Counted from the first letter of the stretch, positions 7,747-37,188 are shown. The stretch is DNA of 64,000 bases from Candidatus Dadabacteria bacterium (GCA_022822065.1 JAJECI010000008.1:117254-181253); one strand, 5' to 3'. Notes: generated by a model from the letters alone, not told the origin. Translations and numbers: made by a program.

Positions 7747-9507
7747 GTGGCTACCGATACTTCTGCTTCGCGATCAGGCGTTCGCTACGAACCTAACGAC
7801 AAGCCGCCGACGCTACTCGTAGCCGGGCTAGGCTTACAGCTAGCCATTCTCACCATAGCGGGGATCGCCATCACGCCGGTCATCGTGATCAAGGCCGCCG
7901 GCGAATCCGAGACTTACATGTTGTGGGCGGTATTCGCGTCAGTCGTGATTAGCGGGGTCAGCACTATACTGCAGGCCGTCAGAGTTGGTCGAATCGGCGC
8001 AGGATACGTTCTCCTGATGGGCACCTCCGGCGCATTCATCGCAATCTGCATCACCGCGATCGCGAAAGGCGGACCCGCCATGTTGGCGACGCTCGTCATT
8101 ATCTCGTCTTTGTTCCAATTTGCCCTGGCGAGACGCCTTTCCCTGTTTCGGCGGATACTCACCCCCACGGTCGCGGGCACGGTAATCATGCTGATTTCCG
8201 TCACCGTGATGCCGATAATTTTCGATCTCCTGGACAAGGTTAAGGACACCGCAGACCCTCAGGCCGCTCCCCTCAGCGCGCTTGTGACCGTGCTTGTCAT
8301 TACAGCCATCGCCATCAAGGGTACCGGCGTATTCCGACTTTGGGCTCCCGTAGCGGGCATCATCGCAGGGTGTATTGTTGGCGGCTTCTTCGGAATTTAT
8401 GACACGACGCGCATTTCCGAATCCGCCTGGATCGGGTTTCCGCAAGGAGGCTGGCCCGGCTTTGATCTGAGTTTCGGACCGACGTTCTGGACGCTCCTGC
8501 CCGGGTTCATCTTTGTCACCATGATTGGCGCGATCGAGACAATTGGCGACGCCGTGGCAATTCAGCGCATTTCGTGGCGACGGCCGCGAGCCGTAGACTT
8601 TCGCTCCGTTCAGGGAGCCGTGACTGCCGACGGGGTGGGTAACCTACTGTCCGGGCTCGCCGGCACAGTTCCAAACACGACGTACTCGTCCAGCGTATCG
8701 GTAACGGAACTTACCGGAGTGGGGGCTCGGGGAATCGGAATTGCCGCGGGCACCATATTTATCATCTTGGCATGCTTCCCCAAGGCGCTCAGCGCAATTC
8801 TCGCGATTCCGAATCCGGTGGCCGCGGGGTACCTGGCCATCCTGGTGGCTATACTGTTTGTGGTTGGAATGAAGGTTGTCGTCCAAGACGGAATCGACTA
8901 CCGCAAGGGCATGATTGCGGGAGTTTCATTCTGGGTGGGTGTCGGCTTTCAGCACGGCGCAATCTTCCCTGAGTATTTCGCGGAATTTGCCGGCGGCCTG
9001 CTGCAGAACGGCATGACGGCAGGCGGTCTCACCGCCCTGCTCCTTACGCTTTTTGTCGAAGTCACTGAACCTCGGCGCAGACGCATAAATCTTCCGTTTC
9101 ACATTACGACATTGCCGAAAATCCGGGAGTTTCTGCAATCGTTTGCTTCCCACAGCGGCTGGGGGGAGGCGATGGCCAACCGCCTTGACGCCGCCAGTGA
9201 AGAAACCCTGCTCACGCTGCTTGAGCGAAAAACGACGTCAGGCGAGGAAGAACCTTCACGGCGATTGCACATTATTGCGCACAAGGAAGGCGACGAGGCC
9301 GTGCTTGAATTCATAGCGTCAGCCACCGAAGAAAATCTCCAAGACCGGATCGCGCTGCTAGGCGAGCGAGCGTCGGAAGCCTCGACTGAACAAGAGGTGT
9401 CTCTGCGACTGTTGCGACACATCGCCTCGTCGGTACAACATCAGCAATATCACGACACGGATATCCTCACTATCCGCGTGAAGGCACCGGCTCCTACGTC
9501 CGATTGA
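7747..9507 (+). CDS. NCS2 (xanthine/uracil permease)-family transporter with a ~150-aa C-terminal cytoplasmic extension
   Basis: Polytopic protein. The GLGLQLAILTIAG block corresponds to the NCS2 GLQHvLvmyaG motif, here with Leu in place of His. The following VISGVSTILQA block is also NCS2-like. The hydrophilic tail (aa ~440-586) has no recognisable motif. Confidence 0.6.
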   Translation: MATDTSASRSGVRYEPNDKPPTLLVAGLGLQLAILTIAGIAITPVIVIKAAGESETYMLWAVFASVVISGVSTILQAVRVGRIGAGYVLLMGTSGAFIAICITAIAKGGPAMLATLVIISSLFQFALARRLSLFRRILTPTVAGTVIMLISVTVMPIIFDLLDKVKDTADPQAAPLSALVTVLVITAIAIKGTGVFRLWAPVAGIIAGCIVGGFFGIYDTTRISESAWIGFPQGGWPGFDLSFGPTFWTLLPGFIFVTMIGAIETIGDAVAIQRISWRRPRAVDFRSVQGAVTADGVGNLLSGLAGTVPNTTYSSSVSVTELTGVGARGIGIAAGTIFIILACFPKALSAILAIPNPVAAGYLAILVAILFVVGMKVVVQDGIDYRKGMIAGVSFWVGVGFQHGAIFPEYFAEFAGGLLQNGMTAGGLTALLLTLFVEVTEPRRRRINLPFHITTLPKIREFLQSFASHSGWGEAMANRLDAASEETLLTLLERKTTSGEEEPSRRLHIIAHKEGDEAVLEFIASATEENLQDRIALLGERASEASTEQEVSLRLLRHIASSVQHQQYHDTDILTIRVKAPAPTSD

Positions 9508-9778: not shown

Positions 9779-11662
9779 ATGGCTACCACACTGCACATAA
9801 GAGACAACATCGAGCAATCCTACGGGGACGTGTACACGCCGGAGGCGCTAGAGGCCCTTGAATTCATGACCCGCTTCAACGGCGAGCAGAAGGCCCTCAT
9901 GGAAAAAAGGACCCGGAGAAGAAAAAGGCGCTACGAATCCAAGGAAAGAATAACCTTTCTTGATCCCAACTCCCTCATCCCGCGCACCAATATCAAGGTC
10001 CAGGACGCGAGGGACGGAAAATTCGAGGGCCCCGAGATCCCCCATGACCTAAAAAGACAGTGGATACAGGGAACGGGCCCCGCGGCAAAACCTAATTCTC
10101 CGGTTGAAAACAGCATAAGAAACGTCGCCTACGCCCTTCTCTCGGGCGCTGACGGGTGGATGTTCGACGGCGAGGACGCGCTGGGGCAGATCTCGACCAT
10201 GTCCCTTGACAACCAGCGCAACCTCAAGCTCGCGATCGCAAGGGACGAGGTGTTCATGAAAACCGCGGAAGTCGTGGCAGGGCAGATGAACAGGTGGGGA
10301 CAGGAGTTTTTCGGACATGACATAATCGAGGACTGGGAAAAGCAGCTTGACTTCACCACCGTGATTTTCAGGGCGAGGGGACTTCACCTGGACGACCGCC
10401 ACATACGGGACGCAGACGGCGTCGCGCTTTCGGCTTCCGTGGTCGATATGACGCTTTTTGTCGTTAACAACTACAGGGAACTCGCCAAGAGAAACTCATC
10501 CATAGTCCTTTACCTGCCGAAGATACAGACCGCCGAGGAAGCCGCGCTCTGGAACGAGATGCTCACCGCCCTTGAGGGCCACATCGGACTTCCCGAAGGC
10601 ACGATAAAGGTATACGTGCTGATAGAGCAGCTTGAGGAAACGTTCCAGCTCATGGAGATAAGGGCGGTTTTGGGCAAGCACTTCGCCGGGTTTAACACCG
10701 GCAGGTGGGATTACATAAACAGCGTCTCTGACGCCGTGGCGTGGGATGCGGATTTCGTTAACCCGAACATAGAGTCGATCACCATGACGTACGGCTACAT
10801 GAGAAACTACGAGGACCGCGTGAGAAGGGCCGTGAACACCCCGGACGTAAACGGGAACTTCGCGCTCTGGCAGGGAGGCATGGAGCCTAACATACCCGTG
10901 GGGTCGAAGGAAGGCGTTGAGAGCAGCATGGAGAAGGCCTACGCCGGGGCCGTAAGGGAGCAGCAGGAAGGAGCAAGCGGCAAATGGGTCGCCCACTGGA
11001 AGATGGTCCACATAATAAGACCCGTATGGGAAAAAGTCGGCGAGGAGAACCAGCTCGGAAGAGAGTTTCCTCCGCTTACCTATACCCAGGAAGACGCGGA
11101 CGGCCTCACACTTCTGGAACCCGCCCCGAGAACCATAAGAGGGGCGCGTAACCTGCTTAGCGTCGGACTTCAGTACGGAAACGCGTTCGGCCAGGGATTC
11201 CAGGCCGCGGCGCTCAAGCCCGCCGATTTCTTCGGAAACGACGACATCCTCTACCTTATGGAGGACGCCGCTACCGGGGAGATAAGGCTCAGCATACTCT
11301 GGGAGTGGATCCACAAGGGAGCGGAACTAACCGAGGATGACCCCGAGACGGGGCTTAAGGCCGGGGACACGTTCACCGCCGAGGTCTTCGAGAGGCTTCT
11401 TGAGGAAGAATACGAAAAGCTCCAGGCGGCAAGCGACAGGGACGTCCATGACATCTCAAAGCCCACCACCCTTCCGATAGCGAAACAGATAGTGAGAGCC
11501 TACGTGCTTGACGACGTCAAGGTGCCGTGGTACATAGACCTGCTCAACATCAACCTTAACAACCACGACCACGACGTGGCCTCGCAGAGAATCGAACTCT
11601 ACATGACGGAGTTCGCGGGCAACGACAGGAGAATCACCGAGAACCTCGATTTCGTAATCTAG
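9779..11662 (+). CDS. aceB: malate synthase A
   Basis: Blocks [33 protein letters not shown] and [21 protein letters not shown] align with E. coli AceB motifs ([42 protein letters not shown]). Confidence 0.9.
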
Positions 11663-11706: not shown

Positions 11707-13983
11707 ATGAGCCAGTTAGAAGCTGAGATAAGGAAGACGAAAAGGTATTTCTCAAGCGCGCGCTTTAAGGGAATAACCCGTCTTTACTCACCCCGCCAGG
11801 TGGTGGAGCAGAGAGGAACCATAAGAAGGGACTACTCGATCGCGAAAAACGCGGCGGATGCGTTCTACAAGAGACTCCGCGAGCTTTTCTCGGAGCGAAA
11901 GCAGATAACGTCCTTCGGCCCCTATTCGCCCGGCCAGGCGGTCATGATGAAAAGAAAGGGAATAGAGGGCATATATCTCGGCGGATGGGCCACTTCGGCA
12001 AAAGGATCGATCGGCGAGGACCAGGGAGCGGACTTGGCAAGCTATCCCCTCAGCCAGGTGCCGGACGAGGCGGCTCCCATAGTGAGAGCCCTTCTCGCCG
12101 CGGACAAGAACCAGAGATACAACCGCGCAAGGATGACCGAAAAGGAGAGGGAGCAGACTCCCGAGATTGACTACAGCCCATTCATAATCGCCGACGCGGA
12201 CACGGGACACGGCGGAGACGCCCACGTGAGAAATCTTATCAGAAGGTTCGTCGAGGCGGGAGTTACCGGCTATCACATAGAGGATCAGAAGCCCGGAACC
12301 AAGAAATGCGGTCACCAGGGCGGAAAGGTTCTCGTTCCTTCTGACGAGCAGATAAAGAGACTAAACGCCGCCCGGTTCCAGCTCGATATAATGGAAGTGC
12401 CCGGGATAATCGTTTCGAGAACCGACGCCGAAGCCGCCACCCTTCTTGACGGAAACGGGGACGAGCGCGACCAGCCGTTTGTCCTGGGAGCAACCAAACT
12501 CAACATCCCCAGTTACAAAAACGCCTACCTGACGATCCTGAGAAGGATCCACGAAAAAGGCGTAAAGGAGATAAACGGCCACAAGCTCTACAAGATAAGC
12601 AAAGAGACCTACGCGGAAACGGACAAGTGGCTTGAGGAAACCGGCATAGCGTCGTTTGTGGACGAGAACATAGAGGCAATGAAGGGGGACACCCAGGAAC
12701 TTGAAACCGCTCTTGATTCCATAGTCACCAAGTTCGTCGAGATATGGGAAGAGGAATCCGGTCTCACCACCTTCGGCGAAACGATAGAGACGCTCATGGA
12801 GTTTAACATGGAGCAGGGCGTTGAATTCGACATGACAGTCGAGCAGTGGAGGGAGTTTGCCAAGACCGCTTCCACGAAAGACGCCATGGAGAAGGCCGAT
12901 TCCCTAGGGATCGACTACATATGGGATCCCGAGATTTCAAGAACCCCCGAGGGATACTACCAGGTAAAAGGCGGAATCGAGTACTCCATCGCCAAGTCGC
13001 TTGCCGTGGCGCCCTTTGCCGACCTGCTCTGGATGGAAACCAAGACGGCGGACCTTGAGGACGCAAGGAAGTTCGCAGACGCCATCCACGAGGTTTTCCC
13101 GGACAAGATGCTTGCCTATAACCTCTCTCCCTCCTTTAACTGGGACACGACGGGAATGACAGACGAGGAAATGAAGAAATTCCCGGAAGAGATAGGGAAG
13201 CTCGGCTTCGTGTTCGATTTCATAACCTACGGAGGCCACCAGATCGACGGCATGGCCGCCGAAGAGTTCGCAACCGCGCTTATGGAAGACGGAATGCTCG
13301 CCCTGGCCCGCGTGCAGAGAAGGCTGAGGCTCATAGATTCGCCTTACAAGACCCCGCAGACCCATGTCGGGGGACCCCGCATGGACGGAGCGCTCGTCGC
13401 GAGTTCCGGAAGAACCGCGACCACGAAGGCTATGGGCAAGGGTTCGACGCAGTTCCAGCATCTGGTCCAGACGGAGGTTTCCATCAAGCTTCTTGAGGAG
13501 TGGTTTGAGTCCTGGGCGAGGCACTATAAAATCAAGGACACATTCACCGCCGAACTTAAGCCCCACACCGTGGGAACTTTCGTTCTTGAACTTAATATCC
13601 TAAACGGCAAGGGCGAGAAAGTGGCGGACGTCATATTCGAGATACTGCAGGACAGAAAAGGAGAGAAAATACTCACTGTAAGGGATGAGAATAATTTTGA
13701 TACATCCCTTCGCCGGAAACGCCTCGCGACTATACTTCACCTGTTCCTGATTCACCGTTACAGAACGGATTTCGTGCATTACGTAAGCCCCACGGAAGAC
13801 AACCTCATGCAGACCAAGGGAATGATGAAGCTCGGAATCTACGAATCGGTCAACACCGAAGTCGGCCATATAATAGTGACCAAGGTAAACGTCGATTACG
13901 TGAAGGAGCTGCTGAGCCCCGACCGCAGGGAACTCAAGAGGCTCATCGCGAAAAAAACAAAACCCCGTCGTAAAAAGAAATAA
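11707..13983 (+). CDS. aceA: isocitrate lyase, long (ICL2/eukaryote-like, 758 aa) form
   Basis: ICL signature KKCGHQGGK (K-[KR]-C-G-H), plus [11 protein letters not shown] and SRTDAEAA. The length indicates the long form with an inserted domain. It sits immediately downstream of aceB. Confidence 0.9.
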
Positions 13984-14060: not shown

Positions 14061-14422
14061 GCGAGATATCTCTTTATCTCTTGCCGACAAAATCTCGCTT
14101 CCTGATCTGATAACCATGCTCCCATAGGAGTTATGGGCAACCATAACAACAAAGCAGGTGAATGGATGGTCTCTTACCGCTACGGTTTCATGAAGATGGA
14201 CGAGAACAGCCTGACGATTGAGATCGGATTACCATTCTACCAACATCTCGACAGTCTGCAGTTTAAAAGCGATTACAGTTTTACAATCGGCTGGCAGTTT
14301 TCAATCTGAGAAAAAAATCCGATTAAAAACTCTCGATTAACACAAAGGCCTAGTATTGCCATTGACATTCTTTCTCCTTCATAAATAAACCCCGAAAACT
14401 AGACGGAGTCTTAGTAGCGTAT

Positions 14423-15367
14423 TCACTCAGTATGTTGAGATTGTATTCTTGAGGTTAATCTATTTTTTCTCCGGCTTTTTGATGGCCACCGTAATATTCC
14501 ATCAAGCTCTTCAAGTAATAGCGGTTCCCCATAACCAACATCGTAAGGCTGAATTTCACCTGCAGGTTTCAAGCTTTCATCAAACCAGAGGATAGAAAGA
14601 CATTGATTCCATTCTTTTATAAAGATTGCTTCTTCACACAGCATGTCGTAATTTCCGACACCATTGTTGAACCAAATCTCAGTAGGAATCTCTTCATTGT
14701 ATTGCTCAGTCTCAGATCGGTTTTTGATCAGGTGAAAAGCTACGCTGTTTTGAGGAACCGGTACACCGATGTCAATCCATCCCTTAAGTTCGCGTAGAGA
14801 CTTTGAACTGGAAACATAGCGAATTTGACCTTCTTCAATAAGAACAAAGGAACAGAGCCCTTCACAGTTGGCGGCGAACCTGGAACCCGTAGAGTGTATA
14901 GAGGCTCTATAACGTTTTGACAGCTCCTTTATCGTATCGAGACATATATCAACATCCTCAATATCTTTCTTGAAAAAATCATATGGTAAGAGGCATTCCG
15001 CTGCAAAAATATCGCATAAAACCTCTTCCTCGGGACGCTGTCTGTAACTCATTAGATCGGTTGTTTTTATAGAACCATCTTGATGCTTTGAGGGTAGTTC
15101 CAGAATGATATGGCCAATTTCGTGTAGAATAGTAAACCGCTGTCTTTCCTCCGTATGTTTCCCGTTAACAGTGATAATGTTCCTTCCGTTTAAGAAAAAA
15201 GTTTGACCCGATTCTTCATCGTCAAGATCATGGCAAACTTCAATTTCAGCCCCAGCAACCGCAGAGTAAAGCTTAAGGTTAACAGGCACGGAATTTATTT
15301 CAGATTCCCTAATGAAATCGCGTGCCTTTAAAACGACTTCAAGTTCTTTCGCTTTGTGCTTACCCAT
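14423..15367 (-). CDS. CapP-like ImmA/IrrE-family Zn-metallopeptidase (CBASS regulator)
   Basis: HEIGH motif (FTILHEIGHIIL) in a DUF955/ImmA-like core, 314 aa. It overlaps the upstream HTH gene by 8 nt and is divergent from the CBASS operon. Confidence 0.75.
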   Translation of the reverse strand: MGKHKAKELEVVLKARDFIRESEINSVPVNLKLYSAVAGAEIEVCHDLDDEESGQTFFLNGRNIITVNGKHTEERQRFTILHEIGHIILELPSKHQDGSIKTTDLMSYRQRPEEEVLCDIFAAECLLPYDFFKKDIEDVDICLDTIKELSKRYRASIHSTGSRFAANCEGLCSFVLIEEGQIRYVSSSKSLRELKGWIDIGVPVPQNSVAFHLIKNRSETEQYNEEIPTEIWFNNGVGNYDMLCEEAIFIKEWNQCLSILWFDESLKPAGEIQPYDVGYGEPLLLEELDGILRWPSKSRRKNRLTSRIQSQHTE

Positions 15368-15737
15368 TCTTCATAAACTCTTCCAACCGTTCAGCCCACT
15401 TGCGCCATTCATCCTTAGTTTTAGGTCGTCTTCCCCTGAAGCTCATAGATGATAAAGACTCGAAAAGTTCTATTGGGCGTTCTTCGTCCTCAAGAAAAAC
15501 CTCAATAAGCTGGTCACTGACTGTTTGTCCGACAAGGAGGTGTAATAGGTGTGCCCTGCGCCTATCAAGCTTGAGGGTATTAATGAGGGAATCGACGGTT
15601 TGTTCAGACGGAGAGGTTCTTTCTTCCTTTTCCAAGCGATGAATATAAGTATAGTGGATCCCGCATAATTTCCCGAGTTCTCGAAGAGTTAAACCACGTC
15701 TCTTGCGAAACTTTCTCAAAGCGTAACCAAAAGACAT
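15360..15737 (-). CDS. CapH-like XRE-family HTH transcriptional repressor (CBASS regulator)
   Basis: N-terminal HTH LRKFRKRRGLTLRELGKLCGIHYTYIHRLEKEER (XRE/Cro-type), 125 aa. First gene of a two-gene operon with the ImmA peptidase. Confidence 0.75.
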   Translation of the reverse strand: MSFGYALRKFRKRRGLTLRELGKLCGIHYTYIHRLEKEERTSPSEQTVDSLINTLKLDRRRAHLLHLLVGQTVSDQLIEVFLEDEERPIELFESLSSMSFRGRRPKTKDEWRKWAERLEEFMKNG

Positions 15738-15759
15738 TCTATATTTCTTAAAAAAATTC

Positions 15760-15788
15760 TTGACAAAAAAAGAAAGATTGATTATTCT
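15760..15788 (+). promoter_or_regulatory. candidate sigma70 promoter for the CBASS operon (TTGACA-17 nt-TATTCT) in the capH/CBASS divergent intergenic region
   Basis: TTGACA at 15760-15765, 17-nt spacer, TATTCT at 15783-15788. Downstream are two CAACATT-containing repeats (acagacaacattcta and tctgtcaacattata) that could be CapH operator half-sites. Confidence 0.4.
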
Positions 15789-15973
15789 GTTGCCTGTACA
15801 GACAACATTCTATGCTAATTCACTAAAACAAAATAAAATTTAGCTCGATGAACATGTATAAAGCGTAGCTTGTTTCTGTCAACATTATAATAGAAACTGC
15901 AGATTTTCTCAAGCGTTTTTTACCGTTGGTCTTAAAAAATAGGGCTGAGAGAGAAAAAGAATTCGACGAAGTT

Positions 15974-16969
15974 ATGAGAAAGGATACTGAAATAGCGAAA
16001 AAACGAATCCTATGTATTGACGGAGGGGGAGTCCTCGGCACTTTTCCTGCAGCATTTCTCGCTGAACTGGAAAAACACCTTGATCACCCTATTGGAAAGT
16101 ATTTCGACCTAATTGCGGGAAGTTCCACAGGAGGAATTATTGCACTTGGTCTCAGCATGGGAATTTCCGCATCGCAACTGTTGAATTTCTACGAAAACAG
16201 AAGTTATGAGGTATTTGGTAAAAATAATAGACCGTTTCTGAGTTTTTTCCTCAGAAAAATCCGAGCAGTTAAATGGTGCTTTCTAAGAAAGTATAACTCT
16301 GAACCTCTCCGAACTGTTCTTTATGATGTGTTTGGGGAAAAACGTATAGGTGAAGCGAAAACCCGGTTACTTATTCCAGCTTGGAATCCGGTGGCTAATT
16401 CCGTCTACATCTATAAAACAGCACATCATCCCCGTCTAAAAACAGATTATAAATCAAGCGCGGTTGATGTAGCTATGGCGACATCAGCAGCTCCTTCCTA
16501 TTTCAAGCAACACGTTACACAGCATGGTGTTGTCCTCATTGACGGCGGCATATGGGCAAACAACCCCGTAGCGATTGCTGTTGTTGAGGCCATCTCCCTG
16601 CTGAACTGGCCAAGAGAGTCACTTCGCATCTTAAGCCTAGGGTGTCTGCAGGAGGCATACAATATACCAAAACACGCTGGCCTCGGAATGCTTAACTCAA
16701 AAATTATTAACTTATTCATGGACGGACAGTCTCAAGGGGCTATGGGTATCGCAAAGCTGTTAACGGGTCATGAACACGAACGTACCGCTATATACAGGGT
16801 GAATCAGACGGTTCCATATAATACCTACAAAATGGACGACACAAAGACCATACAAGACTTAAAAGGACTCGGCCATTCCGAGGGGCGAAGTTGGCAACCC
16901 AACCTTGAGGCTATATTTTTCGACAAACCGGCAGAAGTTTTCAAACCATATTATAAGTTGGAGGATTAA
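15974..16969 (+). CDS. patatin-like phospholipase (CBASS effector, CapV/CapE-like)
   Basis: Oxyanion-hole motif ILCIDGGGVLG, nucleophile motif GSSTGG (GxSxG) and catalytic DGG in IDGGIWANNP. Start is taken at ATG 15974. The ORF track starts at an in-frame TTG at 15926, which is less likely. Confidence 0.85.
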   Translation: MRKDTEIAKKRILCIDGGGVLGTFPAAFLAELEKHLDHPIGKYFDLIAGSSTGGIIALGLSMGISASQLLNFYENRSYEVFGKNNRPFLSFFLRKIRAVKWCFLRKYNSEPLRTVLYDVFGEKRIGEAKTRLLIPAWNPVANSVYIYKTAHHPRLKTDYKSSAVDVAMATSAAPSYFKQHVTQHGVVLIDGGIWANNPVAIAVVEAISLLNWPRESLRILSLGCLQEAYNIPKHAGLGMLNSKIINLFMDGQSQGAMGIAKLLTGHEHERTAIYRVNQTVPYNTYKMDDTKTIQDLKGLGHSEGRSWQPNLEAIFFDKPAEVFKPYYKLED

Positions 16970-16971
16970 GA

Positions 16972-18171
16972 ATGAGAATTGATGAAGCTAGATATTCTAA
17001 CTTTTTAGACGAAGTTGCAGGAAACCTAGATATTTCCCCGAGCAAGTACAGAGATGCTGTCGACCGCTACCAAGCTGTTGCGAAATGGCTCGAAGGCGGA
17101 GATTACCCCGGACCTTCTGATTCTGGGTTAGACATCTATCCACAAGGCTCATTTCGTTTAGGTACAGTCACGAGACCAATAAGGAACAGTATTGAAGCAG
17201 ATTATGACATTGATCTTGTGTGCGAAGTCCCCTTGCTAAAAGAGTGGGCCAAGCCTGAGTACGTAAAGCAGTTAGTCGGCGACAGACTAAAAGAACACGA
17301 CATGTATAGGAGAATGCTAGATGAAGAAGGTAGGCGATGCTGGACGCTAATATATTCTGAGCAAGACAATATTGGCTTCCACCTGGATGTTCTGCCGTCA
17401 GTCCCCTATTTGGGAGGCTACCTAAACACGGCGATTGCGATAACGGACAAAGATCTTTCCCTTTACAGGTGGTCAATAAGCGATCCTAAGGGTTACGCTC
17501 AATGGTTTGATGATAGAAACATGTCCGCATTTAACCTGGTATCTGCTGAACAGAAGAGACTTATTCAAAATCAAGCCCCGGAAATATACGCAAGAATCGA
17601 AGACGTACCTAATCAATTAGTTCGTACTCCCCTTCAACGTGCAATTCAAATTATGAAACGTCACCGTGACATTAAGTTCAATGACACAAGATCTATTGAG
17701 TATGCCCCGATTTCAATAATCATTACGACTCTCTCCGCATATTTCTATCGAAACGAACCAGATGTCTACTCCGCTCTGAAGAATATTGTAGGTAGTTTAA
17801 ATGCACATTCTGCCCTATTTGAAAATCGGGTTCTTGATCCTGCTCTCAAATCAATTACTCCCATAAAAAGGACCTCTGATGGCAAATGGCATATAGGCAA
17901 TCCTGTTAATCCAGAGGAAAACTTTGCAGACAGGTGGCATGAGAATAACCATGCCAGAGCAAAAGCATTCTTTCAGTGGTTGGACTCTCTACAAAAAGAC
18001 CTTATTAACATACTTAATGAAAACAATCGAGACCTAGCAAAAAGCACCCTTATCTCAGCCCTAGGCAGTGTCCCAGTATCGCAAAATCTGGAACTGATAA
18101 TCCCTCCTAAAGTAATCGAAAGCCCCCCGAAGATTCATATTTCTAGGCCAGCGCAACCGTGGAAAGACTAG
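16972..18171 (+). CDS. cGAS/DncV-like nucleotidyltransferase (CD-NTase, SMODS domain) of CBASS
   Basis: Pol-beta-type NTase motif QGSFRLGT...DYDIDLV (GS...[DE]h[DE]h), with a third acidic residue in GFHLDVLPS. GGAGG Shine-Dalgarno 7 nt upstream. It lies between a patatin effector and an E2-like gene and is translationally coupled to the next gene (TAG-a-ATG). Confidence 0.8.
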   Translation: MRIDEARYSNFLDEVAGNLDISPSKYRDAVDRYQAVAKWLEGGDYPGPSDSGLDIYPQGSFRLGTVTRPIRNSIEADYDIDLVCEVPLLKEWAKPEYVKQLVGDRLKEHDMYRRMLDEEGRRCWTLIYSEQDNIGFHLDVLPSVPYLGGYLNTAIAITDKDLSLYRWSISDPKGYAQWFDDRNMSAFNLVSAEQKRLIQNQAPEIYARIEDVPNQLVRTPLQRAIQIMKRHRDIKFNDTRSIEYAPISIIITTLSAYFYRNEPDVYSALKNIVGSLNAHSALFENRVLDPALKSITPIKRTSDGKWHIGNPVNPEENFADRWHENNHARAKAFFQWLDSLQKDLINILNENNRDLAKSTLISALGSVPVSQNLELIIPPKVIESPPKIHISRPAQPWKD

Positions 18172-18172
18172 A

Positions 18173-18901
18173 ATGAAAGGCAAAATCAGAAAAGAGATTT
18201 GCGAGTTGAAGCAAACTTACAAATGCCTCACAGACATATCTCATCGAAAACAGGAAACAATAATAAAAGGCCCCCTTTCATTTGAAGCGTCTTTTGACGA
18301 GTTCCCGGTGATTGTTGAGTGCTTTGATATTGAACTAGCTATTCCTGACTCTTACCCAGAAGTCCTTCCAATTGTACGAGAAACAGGTGGAAGAATCGAC
18401 CAAGATTATGAACACCTGAATCAGGATGGAACCCTTTGTCTTACTACACCGATTGAGAAACGCCTGCTTTTTCTAGAGCAAAAATCTTTACTCGGATTCG
18501 TAAATCTTCTTGTTATCCCATATTTATATGGTTACTCCTACTGGAAAAAGTATGGTCATCACCCTTTTGGTGAGCGTGCACACGGAGTTGAGGGAATTAT
18601 TCAGTACTATCAGGATGAGTTAGGTTTAAGCGGTAATGTACATATACTAGCAATGCTCGCTTTTCTTTTCCAGTTCGGTTATCGTGGCCATCTTCTCTGT
18701 CCCTGCGGAAGCGGATTTAAAGTTCGGGAATGTCACAGCGAAACTTTATTAAAGCTTCATAAATATCACTCTAATCACACCTTAAGAAATGATTTCTTAT
18801 ATCTACTTTCTCTTTGCTTAGAAAAAAAAGAAGAGTTCTCTGAAGAGCTTTCAAAACAGATAGATCGAATACTAAAAAAAGAAAAATTAAGAAAAAAGTA
18901 A
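18173..18901 (+). CDS. Cap2-like E2 (UBC-fold) protein without E1 or JAB partner, with a C-terminal SEC-C-type zinc-binding motif
   Basis: IELAIPDSYPEVLPIVRE resembles the E2 block (FP.DYPFKPPKV.F). HLNQDGTLCLTTP resembles the HPN-x(n)-G-ICL active-site Cys region. LLCPCGSGFKVRECH is a SEC-C-like CPCGSG.K...CH metal knuckle. Confidence 0.65.
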   Translation: MKGKIRKEICELKQTYKCLTDISHRKQETIIKGPLSFEASFDEFPVIVECFDIELAIPDSYPEVLPIVRETGGRIDQDYEHLNQDGTLCLTTPIEKRLLFLEQKSLLGFVNLLVIPYLYGYSYWKKYGHHPFGERAHGVEGIIQYYQDELGLSGNVHILAMLAFLFQFGYRGHLLCPCGSGFKVRECHSETLLKLHKYHSNHTLRNDFLYLLSLCLEKKEEFSEELSKQIDRILKKEKLRKK

Positions 18902-19469
18902 AGACTAAGCTTTCACTGATGCGGAGGAAGTTTTTGGATTTTCCTCAAAAAATCCCACGGCAAGTAATTCATGACAAATCAGGAAAAAATTTAATCAGAG
19001 AATACAACGAATTTCAGCACTTTATCTTTCGAAGTAATAAGGACTTCGATAGATGCAGGTACGGGTGTAAAAGCAAAACATTCTAACGATCGTAGGTCTT
19101 TGACAGTTGCTTTTCAACATGGCAATTCTGAAGCCGAGAAAACTCTAAAAGCTTGTGGAGCAAAATTTTAAAAAGTAACCAAGAGAAAAGAACTTTTCCG
19201 AAGAAACCAAGTCTCACAGAACCGATTCCCACAACGATGGATCAAGTAGTTAAGTCGTTCCTCGCCAATAATCCCAAGCCTAAGAAACCTCCCGAGAAAA
19301 GTAAAAAGAAGCAAACACCCTCACACAGAGCATTATAACTTGGCTATCATTATATATAATCCCCTATATTTTTTGTAGTAATCGATACCGAAAACTGTAT
19401 TCTAATCTGTTCAGAAAAGGAGCAGTGTCTCAACACGCCTCCTGAAAATACGGAACCGAGAGTAATTCG

Positions 19470-20843: not shown

Positions 20844-20873
20844 GAAAGGGGATTTCTGCACCGCGCGGAAATG

Positions 20874-20948
<75 letters not shown>

Positions 20949-20983
20949 CAAAAAAACCAAACACGCATCAAATCACGAAGAAA

Positions 20984-21059
20984 TGGTCGGGGTGAGAGGG
21001 CTCGAACCTCCGACCTCAGCATCCCAAATGCTGCGCGCTCCCAGCTGCGCCACACCCCG
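20984..21059 (-). tRNA. tRNA-Pro (anticodon TGG), CCA encoded
   Basis: Reverse-complement cloverleaf. Acceptor cggggtg/caccccg, anticodon stem cagca/tgctg with loop ttTGGga, T-arm ggagg-ttcgagc-cctct. 3' end is ACCA. Confidence 0.85.
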
Positions 21060-21125: not shown

Positions 21126-22022
21126 TCAGGAAGCCGGAAGCCTGTACTTCTTCCAGTATCTTATAAGGCCGCCAGCGTTCATGTGGTAAGGGGCCATAAG
21201 ATCATACTTTTTATAGACCTCTTCGTTTACGCCCTCACGCTCGAATATCTCGCTGAAGTAGGCACCGAACTCCTCGGTTATCTCTTCGTCGCTCTTTCCG
21301 GCCGATACTCTCTCGCCGATCCACTCAGACCACTCTTCGAGTTCTTCGGCAGCGGAGTCAAGCATGGGACCCACATCCGTGTACCCGCCGAAATGGGTTA
21401 GATAAATTATGTCGGGGGATATCTCCCTCATCTTGTCAATGGAAGCGTTCCACTTCTCAAGGTGTATCTCGGGAGGAGGAGTCGCGGGAATCATGGGACC
21501 GCCCGCCATCACACACCCCGCCGTATCCCCGGTAAAAAGCGCATTCTCGATCAGGTAGCAGTGATGATGCCCGGCATGTCCGGCGGTCTCTACGACCCTT
21601 ATCTCAACGCCTCCTATGTTGATTCTCTGGCCGTCCTCAATGGCAACCACGCGGTCTTTATCTATTCCCCCGACCTCGCCCCAGAGGCGTTTCATGCTGT
21701 CCTCCCCGTATATCCTCGTCGCGGATTTCATAAGTTTTTCCGGCTCTATGAGGTGCGGAGCTCCCACCGGGTGAACGTATATCGTCGAACCCGTCTCGGC
21801 GAGACGCCAGGCGCCTCCGGAATGATCGAGGTGGATATGGGTTACGAACACATGTTTTACGTCAGAGAGGGCGTATCCCAGATCTGAAAGCCCGCTTTTG
21901 AGATTCTCGAACACGGTCTCGGGACCCGTCTCTATAAGTATCGGCCCCTCGCCGGTTTCGATAACGTAAGAGGCTATCGTTTCAGTCATAAAGAAATTAA
22001 GGTCAATGATCTTCAAGTCCAT
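21126..22022 (-). CDS. MBL-fold metallo-hydrolase
   Basis: Metallo-beta-lactamase motif VTHIHLDHSGG (HxHxDH), with downstream His and Asp ligands. Size is 298 aa. Confidence 0.8.
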   Translation of the reverse strand: MDLKIIDLNFFMTETIASYVIETGEGPILIETGPETVFENLKSGLSDLGYALSDVKHVFVTHIHLDHSGGAWRLAETGSTIYVHPVGAPHLIEPEKLMKSATRIYGEDSMKRLWGEVGGIDKDRVVAIEDGQRINIGGVEIRVVETAGHAGHHHCYLIENALFTGDTAGCVMAGGPMIPATPPPEIHLEKWNASIDKMREISPDIIYLTHFGGYTDVGPMLDSAAEELEEWSEWIGERVSAGKSDEEITEEFGAYFSEIFEREGVNEEVYKKYDLMAPYHMNAGGLIRYWKKYRLPAS

Positions 22023-35122: not shown

Positions 35123-35194
35123 AGCCGACGAGGGGATTCGAACCCCTGACCTGCTCATTACGAGTGAGCTGCTCTACCACTGAGCTACATCGGC
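35123..35194 (-). tRNA. tRNA-Thr (anticodon CGT)
   Basis: Reverse-complement cloverleaf. Acceptor gccgatg/cgtcggc, D-arm gctc-agtggt-agagc, anticodon stem gctca/tgagc with loop ctCGTaa, T-arm agggg-ttcgaat-cccct. Confidence 0.85.
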
Positions 35195-35370
35195 AGTAAT
35201 CATCCGGTTAATTATGACACAGGAAAAAATTTTGTGAATATGCGTTGTTAATAGCTACAACCGTTAGTGCAGATTTCCTTGCAATCTGACCTTGTTTGCG
35301 GTTGAATTTAGGAATAACCGATCATACGTTACGATATCAGTAGAGTAAAAACACAGGAGATAATATCAGG

Positions 35371-36822
35371 ATGAAATTCAGGATACACGAAATGTTATTG
35401 AGTCTGTTTTTTATACTGGCGTTTTGTTTTTCGTTCAGCACTGAAGCGTCGGCCCATGAGTACACCGATTCCGACGGAAACGTTTATACACACAGTGAAG
35501 ACATCAACATAAGCGCGGCGGACGTCGACCCTACAAATGAAGCTCAAATGAAGAAGTTCGTCCGTCATCTGGCCAAGCATACGGACCTCATTAATAGCCA
35601 GGACAAGCTCAACGAAACGAAACTGGAGAAATCAAGGGAGATCGTAATATTCGGAAGACGAGCCAGGGAAAGAGCCGGAGAAGGAGAAACCCCTAACGTC
35701 CTCAATCACGGTGATGTCTATAGAATCCTGACCTTAAACTTAATAGATGCTGTAGGGAATCACGGGCTGTATCCAGATCTCTACGGCCGCAAATATGATT
35801 CTTCCCAAGATCCGCTGAAAACTTTACTCGGCGATGACGTCCCCGAATTCTCGGACACCGTTGTTCCGCTGTGCAAAAGGTATGGCGAAGAGAACAGGGT
35901 GGCCTGCGCGGTCAGACAAGAGATCCCCGCGGGGCCGGTAACGACCATGGCGGGCTTTCATCACGCGGAAGACGATCCCGTTGTGCTAGCTCCCGACTGT
36001 TCTGATTTCATTCCTCCGGTTACGGCCGAAGAGGTCGAGAACGAAACAGATCTCGATAAGAAGAGAGAACTTCTTAGACAGTACGTAAAAGGCGTTATTA
36101 AGATCACCAATAAGATATTTGTAGATGCGGCGAAGATGTTTTTTGCAGATACGGGGGCGGAAGCACCCCTGACAGAACTACAACTAATAAGAAGACTACA
36201 AGCAGAAGCTGGTGCAAGGTTCTTCCCAAAAGCGCCTTGTTTTAGGTCACCTGATTTACGTCACGGTTCCATATACTCTTTCATTATGGACCCGATACGT
36301 GGAGTTTCATTTATGAACCCGAACGATCATAACCTAAACGGTCTAAGCGTTTCGCTAAATGACCCGGACCCGGTTCCGTATGACGATCAAGGGAATATTG
36401 AACCAAATGTCCTGGTCGCTTTTCAGAGGGTACTGACAAACACTCCACCACCAGATCCCCCCAACCCGAATAGCATAAAACATGGAGACTCAGGCTTCGT
36501 CACATATCACTGGGCCCATCCCACAAAAACAGAGCTTAACATCCCTGACTATCTCGACCGCGACGTGGTTCCCGGCAGAGCGATCAAGGAAAGCTATATC
36601 GAGGTAGCGGACCTATTCGATGGCGCTGATCCTCCGCCGCTTCCGTTGCCTGTCCCCTTCGTGTTTGGTTCCGGATTCTACCCGCCAGAAATGATGGCGG
36701 AAGAAGGCGATGACGGGTGTTCCATCGCCGCAACCGGCAATACGTCTCAAAGCGCTTTGCTTAATCTTTTCCTGATAGCATCCGTTTTATTCTCAGCCGT
36801 TATCCTGAAAAAGCGCGTTTAG
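35371..36822 (+). CDS. secreted acidic protein, family member 1, with a C-terminal Cys-containing sorting-like tail
   Basis: Signal peptide MKFRIHEMLLSLFFILAFCFSFSTEASA|HE with an AGGAG Shine-Dalgarno. C-terminus GDDGCSIAATGNTSQSALLNLFLIASVLFSAVILKKRV, which is motif, then TM helix, then basic residues. Closely paralogous to 37012..38409. Confidence 0.6.
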   Translation: MKFRIHEMLLSLFFILAFCFSFSTEASAHEYTDSDGNVYTHSEDINISAADVDPTNEAQMKKFVRHLAKHTDLINSQDKLNETKLEKSREIVIFGRRARERAGEGETPNVLNHGDVYRILTLNLIDAVGNHGLYPDLYGRKYDSSQDPLKTLLGDDVPEFSDTVVPLCKRYGEENRVACAVRQEIPAGPVTTMAGFHHAEDDPVVLAPDCSDFIPPVTAEEVENETDLDKKRELLRQYVKGVIKITNKIFVDAAKMFFADTGAEAPLTELQLIRRLQAEAGARFFPKAPCFRSPDLRHGSIYSFIMDPIRGVSFMNPNDHNLNGLSVSLNDPDPVPYDDQGNIEPNVLVAFQRVLTNTPPPDPPNPNSIKHGDSGFVTYHWAHPTKTELNIPDYLDRDVVPGRAIKESYIEVADLFDGADPPPLPLPVPFVFGSGFYPPEMMAEEGDDGCSIAATGNTSQSALLNLFLIASVLFSAVILKKRV

Positions 36823-37188
36823 GCGGAGGAAAATATTTTTTCGCGACTAATCCAGAGAGGAAAGGTTTGAGTAATTCTATTCACCCGAGCCGTATGGAGC
36901 TTTCACAGCCTGCGATGTTCGGTTGACGTCGGTAATCCTGTCAACCTAGAAAAATAATGTAGCAAGTAACTAGTTATAGGGGTAATTACCAAATATTGGA
37001 GGTAATATCAGGTGAAGTTCAGAGCACATGGAATGTTGTTGAGTTTGTTTTTTATGCTGGCGTTTTGTTTTTAGTTAAGCACTGAATCGTCGGCCCAAGA
37101 GTACACCGATTCCGACGGAAATATTTATACACACAGTGAAGACATCAACATAAGCGCGGCGGACGTCGATCCTGCGGATGAAGCTCAA

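What the first reader, a model, noticed from the sequence alone, without database searches (positions are those of the whole stretch)
14423..18901. Compact CBASS anti-phage operon (patatin - CD-NTase - E2) with divergent CapH/CapP regulators
Three co-directional, translationally coupled genes encode:
- a patatin-like phospholipase with the GGG, GxSxG and DGG motifs (15974-16969);
- a Pol-beta-superfamily cGAS/DncV-like nucleotidyltransferase with GS...DYDIDLV and a third Asp (16972-18171);
- a ~240-aa UBC-fold E2-like protein (18173-18901).

This is the layout of type II 'short' CBASS: an E2 only, with no E1 domain and no JAB/Cap3 partner. An XRE-HTH plus ImmA-type HEIGH metallopeptidase pair (15737-14423) is transcribed divergently. 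That pair is the CapH/CapP architecture reported to couple CBASS expression to DNA damage. The system as a class is known. This particular combination, in this host and on a small AT-rich island, deserves experimental attention as an abortive-infection module.
Basis: partly seen in the sequence, partly recalled or inferred. Interest (0 to 1): 0.85.

Follow-up and report, generated by a model that had tools for sequence, protein, structure and literature searches.

The report
E2-only CBASS anti-phage defence cassette
This is a real, intact five-gene CBASS anti-phage suicide system, inserted as a 5-kb cassette into an uncultured bacterium's chromosome; the type is already catalogued and common, but its E2 regulator and cyclase tail differ from the only E2-only system studied in the lab.

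Summary
All five ORFs exist at the stated coordinates. They match models for CapP, CapH, the CBASS phospholipase, a clade G CD-NTase and a CBASS E2. Catalytic residues are intact, and the E2 model has a UBC fold.

Six close relatives have the flanking genes adjacent. The island is therefore a ~5.0-kb insertion (about 14351-19365; 41% GC against ~53%), with no integrase or repeats. Sister MAGs carry the same cassette in other defence islands. About a third of 50 reference-genome loci from many phyla have the same five-gene layout. Characterised Sm-type E2-only systems on plasmids also carry ImmA/HTH pairs. The combination is therefore ordinary.

New details:
- a conserved CapH operator (TGTTGYC-N5-7-GRCAACA, 15788-15807);
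- a conserved predicted CapP cleavage site in CapH (MSF|RG).

The system belongs to a large, uncharacterised E2-only branch:
- the 242-aa E2 carries an invariant SecA-type zinc knuckle;
- the cyclase ends in invariant Pro-Trp followed by Arg/Lys, not the aromatic-Gly tail conjugated in Serratia CdnG.

Verdict: new member of a known kind, moderate interest.

The parts
14351..19365 (.). Inserted defence island (~5.0 kb, GC 0.41). It replaces about 75 bp of the native ICL-MgtE spacer.
   Evidence: In relatives L057-L062, ICL and MgtE are adjacent with a 490-520 bp spacer. blastn and pairwise alignment place the junctions at about 14350 and 19366. There is no target-site duplication, integrase or adjacent tRNA. 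GC.
14423..15367 (-). capP: M78/IrrE-type Zn metallopeptidase (314 aa). HEIGH is at residues 82-86 (15110-15124).
   Evidence: Pfam Peptidase_M78 5e-15; PADLOC capP 4e-49; PDB 7t5t CapP 4e-12 over residues 73-266. HExxH is conserved in 19 cassettes.
15360..15737 (-). capH: XRE-family HTH repressor (125 aa) with a DdrO-like C-terminal domain.
   Evidence: HTH_31 1e-11 and HTH_3 2e-10; PADLOC capH 5e-11; PDB CapH N-terminal domain 7t5u 7e-6; full-length match to Deinococcus DdrO 6jq1/6rnx.
15423..15446 (-). CapH motif M-S-F-R-G-R-R-P (residues 98-105). Predicted CapP cleavage site: F100|R101.
   Evidence: MSFRG(K/R)RP is nearly invariant in 18 CapH orthologs. It aligns with the 'IELRGKRP' segment of DdrO. 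E. coli CapH is cleaved between F82 and R83 (Lau et al.). The site itself is inferred.
15788..15807 (.). Candidate CapH operator: the palindrome TGTTGCCTGTACAGACAACA.
   Evidence: It is the only match in the window, with 0 expected in 100 shuffles. The motif TGTTGYC-N5-7-GRCAACA lies 35-50 bp from the capH start in about 20 of 21 cassettes that have capH/capP. It is invariant in the sister cassettes.
15760..15788 (+). Promoter-like site for the capV-cdn-E2 operon (TTGACA-17-TATTCT). Its -10 hexamer abuts the operator.
   Evidence: Consensus scan, 10 of 12 matches. The hexamers are conserved in L004 and L006. This is a consensus match only; the total count of such sites is not above the shuffled expectation.
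15884..15912 (-). Promoter-like site for capH-capP (TTGAGA-17-TATAAT). Its transcript would read through the operator.
   Evidence: Consensus scan, 11 of 12 matches. The -10 is invariant and the -35 is TTGAAA in the sister cassettes. Consensus match only.
15974..16969 (+). capV: patatin-like phospholipase effector (331 aa from the ATG). Nucleophile Ser51 lies in GSSTG (16118-16132); the catalytic Asp lies in IDGGIW (16538-16555).
   Evidence: Pfam Patatin 7e-29; PADLOC phospholipase effector 1e-100; NCBIfam CBASS cGAMP-activated phospholipase, 246 bits against a 200-bit cut-off.
16972..18171 (+). Clade G CD-NTase (399 aa). Key residues: Q58-G59-S60, D79, D81, D139, and the CdnG lid residues S170 and Y175.
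   Evidence: PADLOC cyclase 6e-113. PDB: VcCdnG 9woo 5e-39 (profile 1e-63), SmCdnG 8hsb 4e-31, BdCdnG 7ljn. The catalytic residues are invariant in 63 homologs.
18157..18168 (+). CD-NTase C-terminal tail P396-W397-K398-D399. It takes the place of the aromatic-Gly-x tail of Sm-type CdnG.
   Evidence: PW lies within the last 6 residues in 120 of 120 homologs. The residue after W is R in 109, K in 5, G in 5 and Q in 1. P396 and W397 are invariant. Sm-type tails are ..FYGD and ..FFGR.
18173..18901 (+). E2-like protein (242 aa). UBC core at about residues 1-130, with invariant H81 and C89 (18413-18439). A ~105-residue helical C-terminal extension follows.
18698..18736 (+). SecA-type (SEC-C) zinc knuckle C176-P-C178-GSGFKVRE-C187-H188 inside the E2 extension.
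   Evidence: Ligands are invariant or nearly so in 70 and 120 homologs. Pfam SEC-C is hit by 24 of 70 members. Weak PDB matches to SecA C-terminal peptides. The knuckle is absent from 163-aa Sm-type E2s.
18902..19365 (.). Island tail of unknown content, with two small ORFs (18919-19086 and 19153-19338).
   Evidence: No Pfam match. No similarity to any other cassette by blastn or tblastx. No Rfam family.

Best explanation
The region is a complete, probably functional, E2-only ('type II short') CBASS abortive-infection system. It was acquired as a ~5-kb cassette.

**Proposed operation**
1. In unstressed cells, CapH (an XRE HTH with a DdrO-like C-terminal domain) binds the palindrome at 15788-15807. 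The palindrome abuts the -10 element of the capV-cdn-E2 promoter. Binding keeps the operon low and autoregulates capH-capP.
2. Single-stranded DNA from damage or phage replication activates the CapP metallopeptidase. CapP cuts CapH, predicted at F100|R101, and de-represses the operon.
3. The clade G CD-NTase, once activated during infection, makes a cyclic dinucleotide. By homology to VcCdnG and other CdnG enzymes this is most likely 3'2'-cGAMP.
4. The patatin phospholipase CapV binds the signal and degrades membrane phospholipid. The cell dies before phage are released.
5. The E2 (catalytic C89 and H81) binds the cyclase C-terminal tail and primes or regulates the cyclase covalently, by analogy with SmE2-SmCdnG.

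**Shown here:** gene identities, folds, catalytic residues, operator conservation, the insertion, and the mobility of the cassette.

**Inferred:** the nucleotide product, CapH cleavage and its site, the promoter assignments, and the chemistry of the E2 step. The E2 step cannot be identical to the Serratia system, because the conjugated glycine is replaced by Arg/Lys and the E2 carries an extra zinc-knuckle domain.
For: - **HMM matches for all five proteins:**
- **Solved-structure relatives:** CapP 7t5t, the CapH N-terminal domain 7t5u, DdrO, VcCdnG and SmCdnG.
- **UBC fold of the E2:**
- **Invariant residues:** catalytic residues in the CD-NTase and the E2. The CdnG-specific lid residues S170 and Y175 are conserved (residue roles from PMC12948482).
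- **Cassette conservation:** the five genes stay together in three different genomic contexts.
- **Reference genomes:** the cdn-E2 pair is in 50 of 50 loci. capV is present in most. A close capP+capH pair is in 16 of 50.
- **Operator:** the palindrome is unique in the window and conserved in position across phyla.
- **Cleavage motif:** MSF|RG is conserved. It matches the F|R cleavage site of E. coli CapH.
- **Empty sites** in relatives.
- **Transcription:** there are no + strand terminator-like sites inside the operon. The genes are 1-2 nt apart.
- **Mechanistic literature:** Lau et al. 10.1101/2022.04.27.489752; Yan et al. 10.1101/2022.05.25.493364; PMC12948482; PMC12804361.
Against: - There are no functional data for this locus or for any member of its E2 subfamily.
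- The CD-NTase lacks the conserved C-terminal Gly that is the conjugation site in SmCdnG. In SmCdnG, G406R abolishes both linkage and defence.
- The AF2 model of the cyclase is only moderate (pLDDT 75). It does not show the C-terminal three-stranded sheet reported to bind E2.
- Promoter calls are consensus matches, and the region as a whole has no excess of them.
- E. coli CapH binds upstream of the -35 element, which is a different geometry.
- The product 3'2'-cGAMP and its recognition by a CapV-type lipase are inferred only.
- The host is an uncultured MAG, so expression is unknown.
Confidence: 0.88

Rival explanations
1. The system is the same kind of CBASS, but the E2 step is mechanistically different from SmE2. 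The zinc-knuckle E2 either conjugates a non-glycine C-terminus (after trimming behind P-W-R/K) or binds the Pro-Trp tail non-covalently as a clamp or sensor. The SEC-C domain would provide the substrate or partner recognition. This refines the best explanation and does not replace it.
For: - PW is invariant, and the residue after W is R/K in 114 of 120 homologs.
- The tail is about 20 residues shorter than in SmCdnG.
- The knuckle ligands are invariant.
- The tail-plus-knuckle pairing persists in Ligilactobacillus and Vibrio plasmids at ~30% identity.
- Sm-type systems have an aromatic-Gly tail and a 163-aa E2 with no knuckle.
- G406R inactivates SmCdnG.
- Weak co-variation: Asn at E2 position 83 never occurs with a Gly tail (0 of 5 against 28 of 39).
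Against: - The catalytic Cys and His of the E2 are invariant, which favours covalent chemistry as in SmE2.
- The residue after W is not fixed (G, L, Q, M, A and S also occur), so it may not be the reactive residue.
- The co-variation (p = 0.004) does not survive correction for 242 columns or for shared ancestry.
- There is no structural model of the complex.
Confidence: 0.45
2. capH and capP are not CBASS regulators. They are an independent ImmR/ImmA-type module, a remnant of a mobile element or a toxin-antitoxin-like pair, that merely sits next to the operon.
For: HTH plus M78 peptidase pairs are widespread in prophages and ICEs. CapP also gives weak hits to RmrA and spr1629-type models.
Against: - The pair travels with capV-cdn-E2 into three unrelated genomic contexts.
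- It is found in the same divergent arrangement in 16 of 50 loci from many phyla.
- A position-conserved palindrome lies in the shared intergenic region.
- The best matches are the capP and capH models and the CapP structure.
- There are no integrase or phage genes in the island.
Confidence: 0.04
3. The cassette is a decaying, non-functional relic.
For: It sits in a small-genome uncultured lineage. The island has a 463-bp tail of unrecognisable sequence. Some reference loci show frameshifted copies, for example L009, L017 and L052.
Against: - All five ORFs are full length.
- Every catalytic and ligand residue is intact.
- The proteins are 74-86% identical to those of sister cassettes with the same lengths.
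- Gene spacing is preserved.
Confidence: 0.05

Closest known systems
E2-only (type II short) CBASS of Serratia marcescens: SmCdnG-SmE2 with a 2TM-SAVED effector (Yan et al. 10.1101/2022.05.25.493364; Xiao et al. PMC12948482)
   Same: - Clade G CD-NTase with the same QGS / DxD / D catalytic residues and the same S/Y lid residues.
- No E1 and no JAB partner.
   Different: - The E2 is 242 aa, not ~160 aa. It has a ~105-residue helical extension carrying a SecA-type zinc knuckle.
- The cyclase tail is ~20 residues shorter. It ends P-W-K-D, not aromatic-Gly-x.
- The effector is a patatin lipase placed upstream, not 2TM-SAVED downstream.
Vibrio cholerae VcCdnG-Cap5 (PDB 9WOO; PMC12804361)
   Same: - Closest solved cyclase (profile E = 1e-63).
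- It shares the ...KPW tail.
- In Vibrio gigantis, a cyclase with the same tail as VcCdnG (...KPWFKQ) is followed by a knuckle-type E2.
   Different: - The effector is Cap5 or a SAVED-domain protein, not a patatin lipase.
- The published work did not address an E2 partner.
- Only ~40% identity.
CapH/CapP regulators of E. coli MS115-1 type III CBASS (Lau et al. 10.1101/2022.04.27.489752) and Deinococcus DdrO/IrrE
   Same: - A divergent HTH + M78 peptidase pair sharing the promoter region with the CBASS operon.
- HExxH active site.
- A Phe|Arg motif in the repressor's C-terminal domain.
- A palindromic operator.
   Different: - This CapH is closer over its full length to DdrO than to E. coli CapH.
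- The operator abuts the -10 element, whereas the E. coli site lies upstream of -35.
- The associated CBASS is type II short.
Vibrio cholerae DncV-CapV-Cap2-Cap3 (canonical type II CBASS)
   Same: - A patatin CapV effector encoded immediately upstream of the cyclase.
- A ubiquitin-like regulatory enzyme downstream.
   Different: - The cyclase is clade G, not clade A.
- The regulator is an E2 alone: no E1 domain and no Cap3/JAB.

Membership tests
CBASS (any type) | CD-NTase with the GS motif and the [DE]xD...D catalytic triad | tested here: met
   Q58-G59-S60, D79, D81 and D139 align to SmCdnG QGS66-68, D84, D86 and D138, and to VcCdnG D135. They are invariant in 63 homologs. PADLOC cyclase 6e-113.
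CBASS (any type) | A cyclic-nucleotide-activated effector gene in the same operon | tested here: met
   The patatin gene ends 2 nt before the cyclase start. NCBIfam CBASS_lipase equivalog scores 246 bits against a 200-bit cut-off. The GxSxG and DGG catalytic dyad is intact. Ligand binding was not tested.
Type II short (E2-only) CBASS, defined by gene content (Millman classification, as cited in PMC12948482) | An E2-like gene is present; there is no E1 domain and no JAB/Cap3 gene | tested here: met
   The E2 has a UBC fold. At 242 aa it has no E1 region; PADLOC E1-E2 models match only through their E2 part. The island has no further ORF with a domain. A JAB gene elsewhere in the genome cannot be excluded.
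E2-CBASS as mechanistically characterised (SmCdnG-SmE2) | E2 catalytic Cys with a nearby catalytic His | tested here: met
   H81 and C89 are invariant in 70 and 120 homologs. The LCL..P motif is shared with Sm-type E2s.
E2-CBASS as mechanistically characterised (SmCdnG-SmE2) | A conserved Gly at the cyclase C-terminus (SmCdnG G406), the residue joined to the E2 Cys/Lys | tested here: not met
   The tail is ...RPAQPWKD, and the last Gly is G365. 114 of 120 homologs have R/K after the invariant PW and only 5 have G. Sm-type tails recovered here are FYGD and FFGR.
E2-CBASS as mechanistically characterised (SmCdnG-SmE2) | A C-terminal helix plus three-stranded sheet E2-binding motif on the cyclase | tested here: inconclusive
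   The AF2 monomer model shows helices 353-375 and then coil (pLDDT ~61). The sequence has strand-like segments (LELII, KIHIS) that align to SmCdnG ...SLHLD. No model of the complex was possible.
CD-NTase clade G | Closest relatives are CdnG enzymes, and the CdnG-specific lid residues (SmCdnG S167 and Y172) are present | tested here: met
   The top three PDB hits are VcCdnG, SmCdnG and BdCdnG. S170 is invariant and Y175 is >=90% conserved. No formal phylogeny was built.
CapH/CapP regulatory module | An HTH repressor and an M78 (HExxH) peptidase, adjacent to each other and divergent from the immune operon | tested here: met
   HEIGH at 82-86. The same arrangement is present in 16 of 50 loci.
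CapH/CapP regulatory module | CapH binds the shared promoter region; ssDNA-activated CapP cleaves CapH | not testable with these tools
   The evidence is indirect only: a position-conserved palindrome and the conserved MSF|RG motif.

The most novel reading that the evidence does not exclude
The locus represents a large, experimentally untouched branch of E2-only CBASS. At least 778 E2 clusters were found, in environmental phyla and on Firmicutes, Bacteroidota and Vibrio plasmids. In this branch a zinc-knuckle (SEC-C) E2 is paired with a cyclase whose tail ends in invariant Pro-Trp followed by Arg/Lys.

The most novel reading is that this E2 trims and conjugates, or otherwise captures, a non-glycine C-terminus. 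That would be chemistry not seen in ubiquitin-like systems. The zinc-knuckle domain would supply the recognition that the C-terminal loop supplies in SmE2.
Probability: 0.3. Interest if true: 0.65.

Novelty: new member of a known kind. Interest (0 to 1): 0.38.

Why it matters
As an instance, it adds a well-delimited CBASS cassette with clean empty-site controls to an uncultured, probably Dadabacteria-related, lineage. It also supplies a ready-made regulatory map: operator, promoters and a predicted CapH cleavage site.

The wider value lies in the subfamily. The only E2-only CBASS dissected so far depends on a C-terminal glycine on the cyclase and uses a ~160-aa E2. This locus, the solved VcCdnG and hundreds of relatives instead pair a Pro-Trp-Arg/Lys tail with a zinc-knuckle E2. 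That makes a concrete question testable: how is the cyclase primed without an E1 and without a glycine? The question bears on how ubiquitin-like conjugation chemistry diversified in bacteria.

Tried and rejected
- **Mobile-element signatures.** I looked for direct or inverted repeats, an integrase and a tRNA target at the island edges. None were found; the nearest tRNAs, at 20873-21059, are beyond MgtE.
- **M-box riboswitch.** I considered one upstream of mgtE that the insertion might have disrupted. Rfam finds only four tRNAs in the window.
- **MBL gene as anti-signalling factor.** I considered whether the MBL gene at 21126-22022 is an island-linked cyclic-nucleotide hydrolase. A precomputed list tags it 'Anti-Pycsar_Apyc1'. 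A fresh Pfam scan gives only generic Lactamase_B and PADLOC gives nothing. The gene is present in all empty-site relatives. It is a core gene, not part of the system.
- **Small ORF 14133-14309.** It is conserved in the empty-site spacers, so it is native sequence and not island cargo.
- **Island tail 18902-19364.** No relatives in other cassettes and no domains.
- **'Missing' SEC-C in sister cassettes.** This was a regex artefact caused by CPCKSG and CPCRSG variants.
- **Clade G activation loop (Hobbs & Kranzusch).** The model predicts a confident helix at 172-201, not a disordered loop. The N-lobe of the model is poor, so I draw no conclusion.
- **E2/tail co-variation scan.** One suggestive column, E2 N83, is not robust to multiple testing or to phylogeny.
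- **Phage records.** They contain no homolog of this E2.
- **Literature searches.** SEC-C with CBASS or SMODS found nothing relevant.

Full report
**1. Observation**

The five ORFs are present as described:
- capP, 14423-15367 (-), 314 aa.
- capH, 15360-15737 (-), 125 aa, overlapping capP by 8 nt.
- A patatin gene, 15974-16969 (+). An upstream TTG at 15926 is an alternative start. The family models begin to match at about residue 6-9 of the ATG form.
- A CD-NTase, 16972-18171 (+), 399 aa.
- An E2-like gene, 18173-18901 (+), 242 aa.

The three + strand genes are separated by 2 and 1 nt. The region has 41% GC, against 53.5% and 52.4% on either side.

**2. Identity of the parts**

| Protein | Evidence |
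|---|---|
| CapP | PADLOC 4e-49; Pfam Peptidase_M78; aligns to the solved CapP 7t5t (4e-12) and more weakly to IrrE |
| CapH | PADLOC 5e-11; Pfam HTH_31/HTH_3 |
| Patatin effector | PADLOC 1e-100; Pfam Patatin; NCBIfam 'CBASS cGAMP-activated phospholipase' equivalog, 246 bits against a 200-bit cut-off |
| CD-NTase | PADLOC 6e-113; Pfam SMODS/DncV-like NTFase |
| E2 | PADLOC 7e-75; sub-threshold Pfam Prok-E2_B |

- The closest solved cyclases are all clade G: VcCdnG (9WOO), SmCdnG (8HSB) and BdCdnG (7LJN).
- In those alignments Q58-G59-S60, D79, D81 and D139 correspond to the SmCdnG QGS motif, D84/D86 and the third Asp. S170 and Y175 correspond to the CdnG-specific GTP-contacting residues S167 and Y172 (residue roles from PMC12948482).
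- All of these residues are invariant or nearly so in 63 homologs.

**3. The E2 fold**

- An AlphaFold2 model built on 70 homologs is confident (pLDDT 91.3, pTM 0.83).
- Foldseek gave only marginal E2/UEV hits.

**4. It is an insertion, and the cassette is mobile**

- Exact-protein look-ups place the window in a metagenome-assembled genome.
- The ≥90%-identity cluster of the patatin protein, and an 81%-identical cyclase, are named Candidatus Dadabacteria in NCBI. The host assignment is therefore an inference.
- Six contigs from close relatives (MgtE at least 90% identical) have isocitrate lyase and MgtE adjacent, with a 490-520 bp spacer. The window has 5,486 bp there.
- Alignment puts the junctions at about 14350 and 19366. 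About 75 bp of native spacer was replaced.
- There is no target duplication, integrase or adjacent tRNA.
- Sister cassettes (cyclase 76-81% identical) keep the same five genes in the same order but sit elsewhere:
  - beside an AlwI-type restriction-modification system (L003, L004);
  - between a type I R-M system, a second CBASS and a UvrD helicase (L006).

**5. How common is the layout?**

A scan of one genome per GTDB species with the E2 profile found 50 loci. The phyla include Latescibacterota, Binatia, Nitrospinota, Nitrospirota, Gamma- and Alphaproteobacteria, Spirochaetia and Verrucomicrobiota. Using the window proteins as queries:
- a cyclase lies immediately upstream of the E2 in 50 of 50 loci;
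- a capV homolog lies upstream of the cyclase in most loci (I counted about 37);
- a close, divergent capP+capH pair is present in 16 of 50, and about 11 more have a distant M78 peptidase.

Sm-type E2-only systems on Pseudoalteromonas and Sinorhizobium plasmids also carry ImmA/IrrE + HTH pairs. Lau et al. reported CapH/CapP with type I, II and III CBASS. The combination is therefore not unusual.

**6. Regulatory anatomy**

- The 236-bp divergent intergenic region contains the palindrome TGTTGCCTGTACAGACAACA at 15788-15807. It is the only match to TGTTGYC-N5-7-GRCAACA in 64 kb, with zero expected.
- The same motif lies 35-50 bp from the capH start in about 20 of 21 cassettes that have capH/capP, across phyla. 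It is almost absent elsewhere in the 66 loci fetched.
- The two best promoter-like sites of the 5.7-kb region both fall in this spacer:
  - TTGACA-17-TATTCT on the + strand, whose -10 hexamer abuts the palindrome;
  - TTGAGA-17-TATAAT on the - strand.
- Both promoter-like sites lie in blocks conserved in the sister cassettes. They remain consensus matches only.
- CapH aligns over its full length with Deinococcus DdrO, the IrrE substrate.
- The motif MSF-RG(K/R)RP is nearly invariant in 18 orthologs. E. coli CapH is cut by CapP between Phe82 and Arg83. I therefore predict cleavage at F100|R101.

**7. Where it departs from the characterised E2-only system**

In Serratia, SmE2 (~160 aa) acts as a Cys/His protease-ligase. 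It removes the last residue of SmCdnG and joins Gly406 to its own Cys101 or Lys159. The glycine is described as highly conserved, and G406R abolishes linkage and defence.

| Feature | Sm-type | This family |
|---|---|---|
| Cyclase tail | ...FYGD, ...FFGR | ...RPAQPWKD in the window; PW in 120 of 120 homologs |
| Residue after the aromatic | Gly | Arg 109, Lys 5, Gly 5, Gln 1 |
| E2 length | 163 aa | 242 aa |
| Zinc knuckle | absent | present |

- Pro396 and Trp397 are invariant.
- The tail is about 20 residues shorter than in SmCdnG.
- The E2 has invariant His81 and Cys89. It also has a ~105-residue extension with an invariant C-x-C...C-H knuckle of the SecA SEC-C type.
- The two features travel together even at ~30% identity:
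  - Ligilactobacillus plasmid: cyclase ...TKPWRN with E2 CICKSG...CH;
  - Vibrio gigantis plasmid: cyclase ...KPWFKQ with E2 CPCGCG...C.
- The solved VcCdnG has the same tail. Its paper does not discuss an E2.
- Several PADLOC E2 models of 216-241 positions match through the knuckle region. This form is therefore catalogued, but I found no paper that describes it.
- An exploratory scan found that Asn at E2 position 83 (His+2) never accompanies a Gly tail. The test is under-powered and confounded by ancestry.

**8. Mechanism**

The best-supported model is the standard CBASS pathway under CapH/CapP control, as set out in the best explanation. The following steps rest on homology only:
- the nucleotide product (3'2'-cGAMP, from the VcCdnG, AsCdnG and EcCdnG precedents);
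- recognition of that product by CapV;
- CapH cleavage;
- the E2 chemistry.

The cyclase model (pLDDT 75) was too weak to judge either the E2-binding sheet or the protease-sensing activation loop described for clade G enzymes.

**9. Verdict**

- The finding is real and correctly interpreted. It is another member of a catalogued and widespread system, not an unusual combination.
- Its residual interest is that it belongs to the uncharacterised zinc-knuckle-E2 / Pro-Trp-tail branch of E2-only CBASS.
- It comes with unusually clean comparative controls: empty sites, relocated sister cassettes and a conserved operator.

Noticed in passing
window 14133-14309 (and L057 about 8680-8800): A small ORF (58 aa, [23 protein letters not shown]...) in the native ICL-MgtE spacer is conserved at DNA level (70-80%) in the empty-site relatives. 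Gene callers annotated it as a 47-aa gene. It has no Pfam or Rfam match. It could be a small protein or a leader element for mgtE that the insertion has displaced 5 kb away from mgtE.
   Followed up: partly
window 21126-22022 (-): An MBL-fold hydrolase carries a precomputed 'Anti-Pycsar_Apyc1' Pfam tag in the public index. A fresh scan gives only generic Lactamase_B. The gene is conserved in relatives that lack the island, so it is a core gene. Whether a host Apyc1-like enzyme could hydrolyse CBASS signals was not examined.
   Followed up: partly
window 35123-38409: Next to tRNA-Thr (35123-35194) lies a lower-GC stretch (0.47-0.48). It holds two large ORFs (35371-36822, 483 aa; 37189-38409, 406 aa) with no Pfam or PADLOC match. 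It may be another acquired segment.
   Followed up: partly
window 15891-15908: A second inverted repeat, AGAAACTGCAGATTTTCT, lies in the capH-capV spacer and overlaps the - strand promoter-like site. An equivalent repeat occurs at the same offset in the sister cassette L003/L004 (GAAACAGGGACCTTTTTC), but not in distant cassettes.
   Followed up: partly
L006 4766-7402: In a sister MAG the same five-gene cassette sits directly beside a second CBASS (CD-NTase with an AGS-C domain plus a 2TM-SAVED effector), a type I R-M system and a UvrD-family helicase. This is a dense defence island.
   Followed up: no
L001 8396-9003; L003 8398-8991: Public gene calls for several of these contigs omit capH entirely, and the exact CapH protein is absent from the 15-billion-protein collection. 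Automated surveys may therefore under-count CapH/CapP association in such genomes.
   Followed up: yes
window 11707-13983: The flanking isocitrate lyase is a long (758-aa) form. It is paired with malate synthase (9779-11662), a glyoxylate-shunt pair conserved in all the relatives.
   Followed up: no
L009, L017, L021, L024, L046, L052: Several reference-genome copies of the cassette have capV, cdn or E2 split over two or more ORFs. These are apparent frameshifts, or assembly errors in long-read MAGs. They may indicate decay of the system in some lineages.
   Followed up: no
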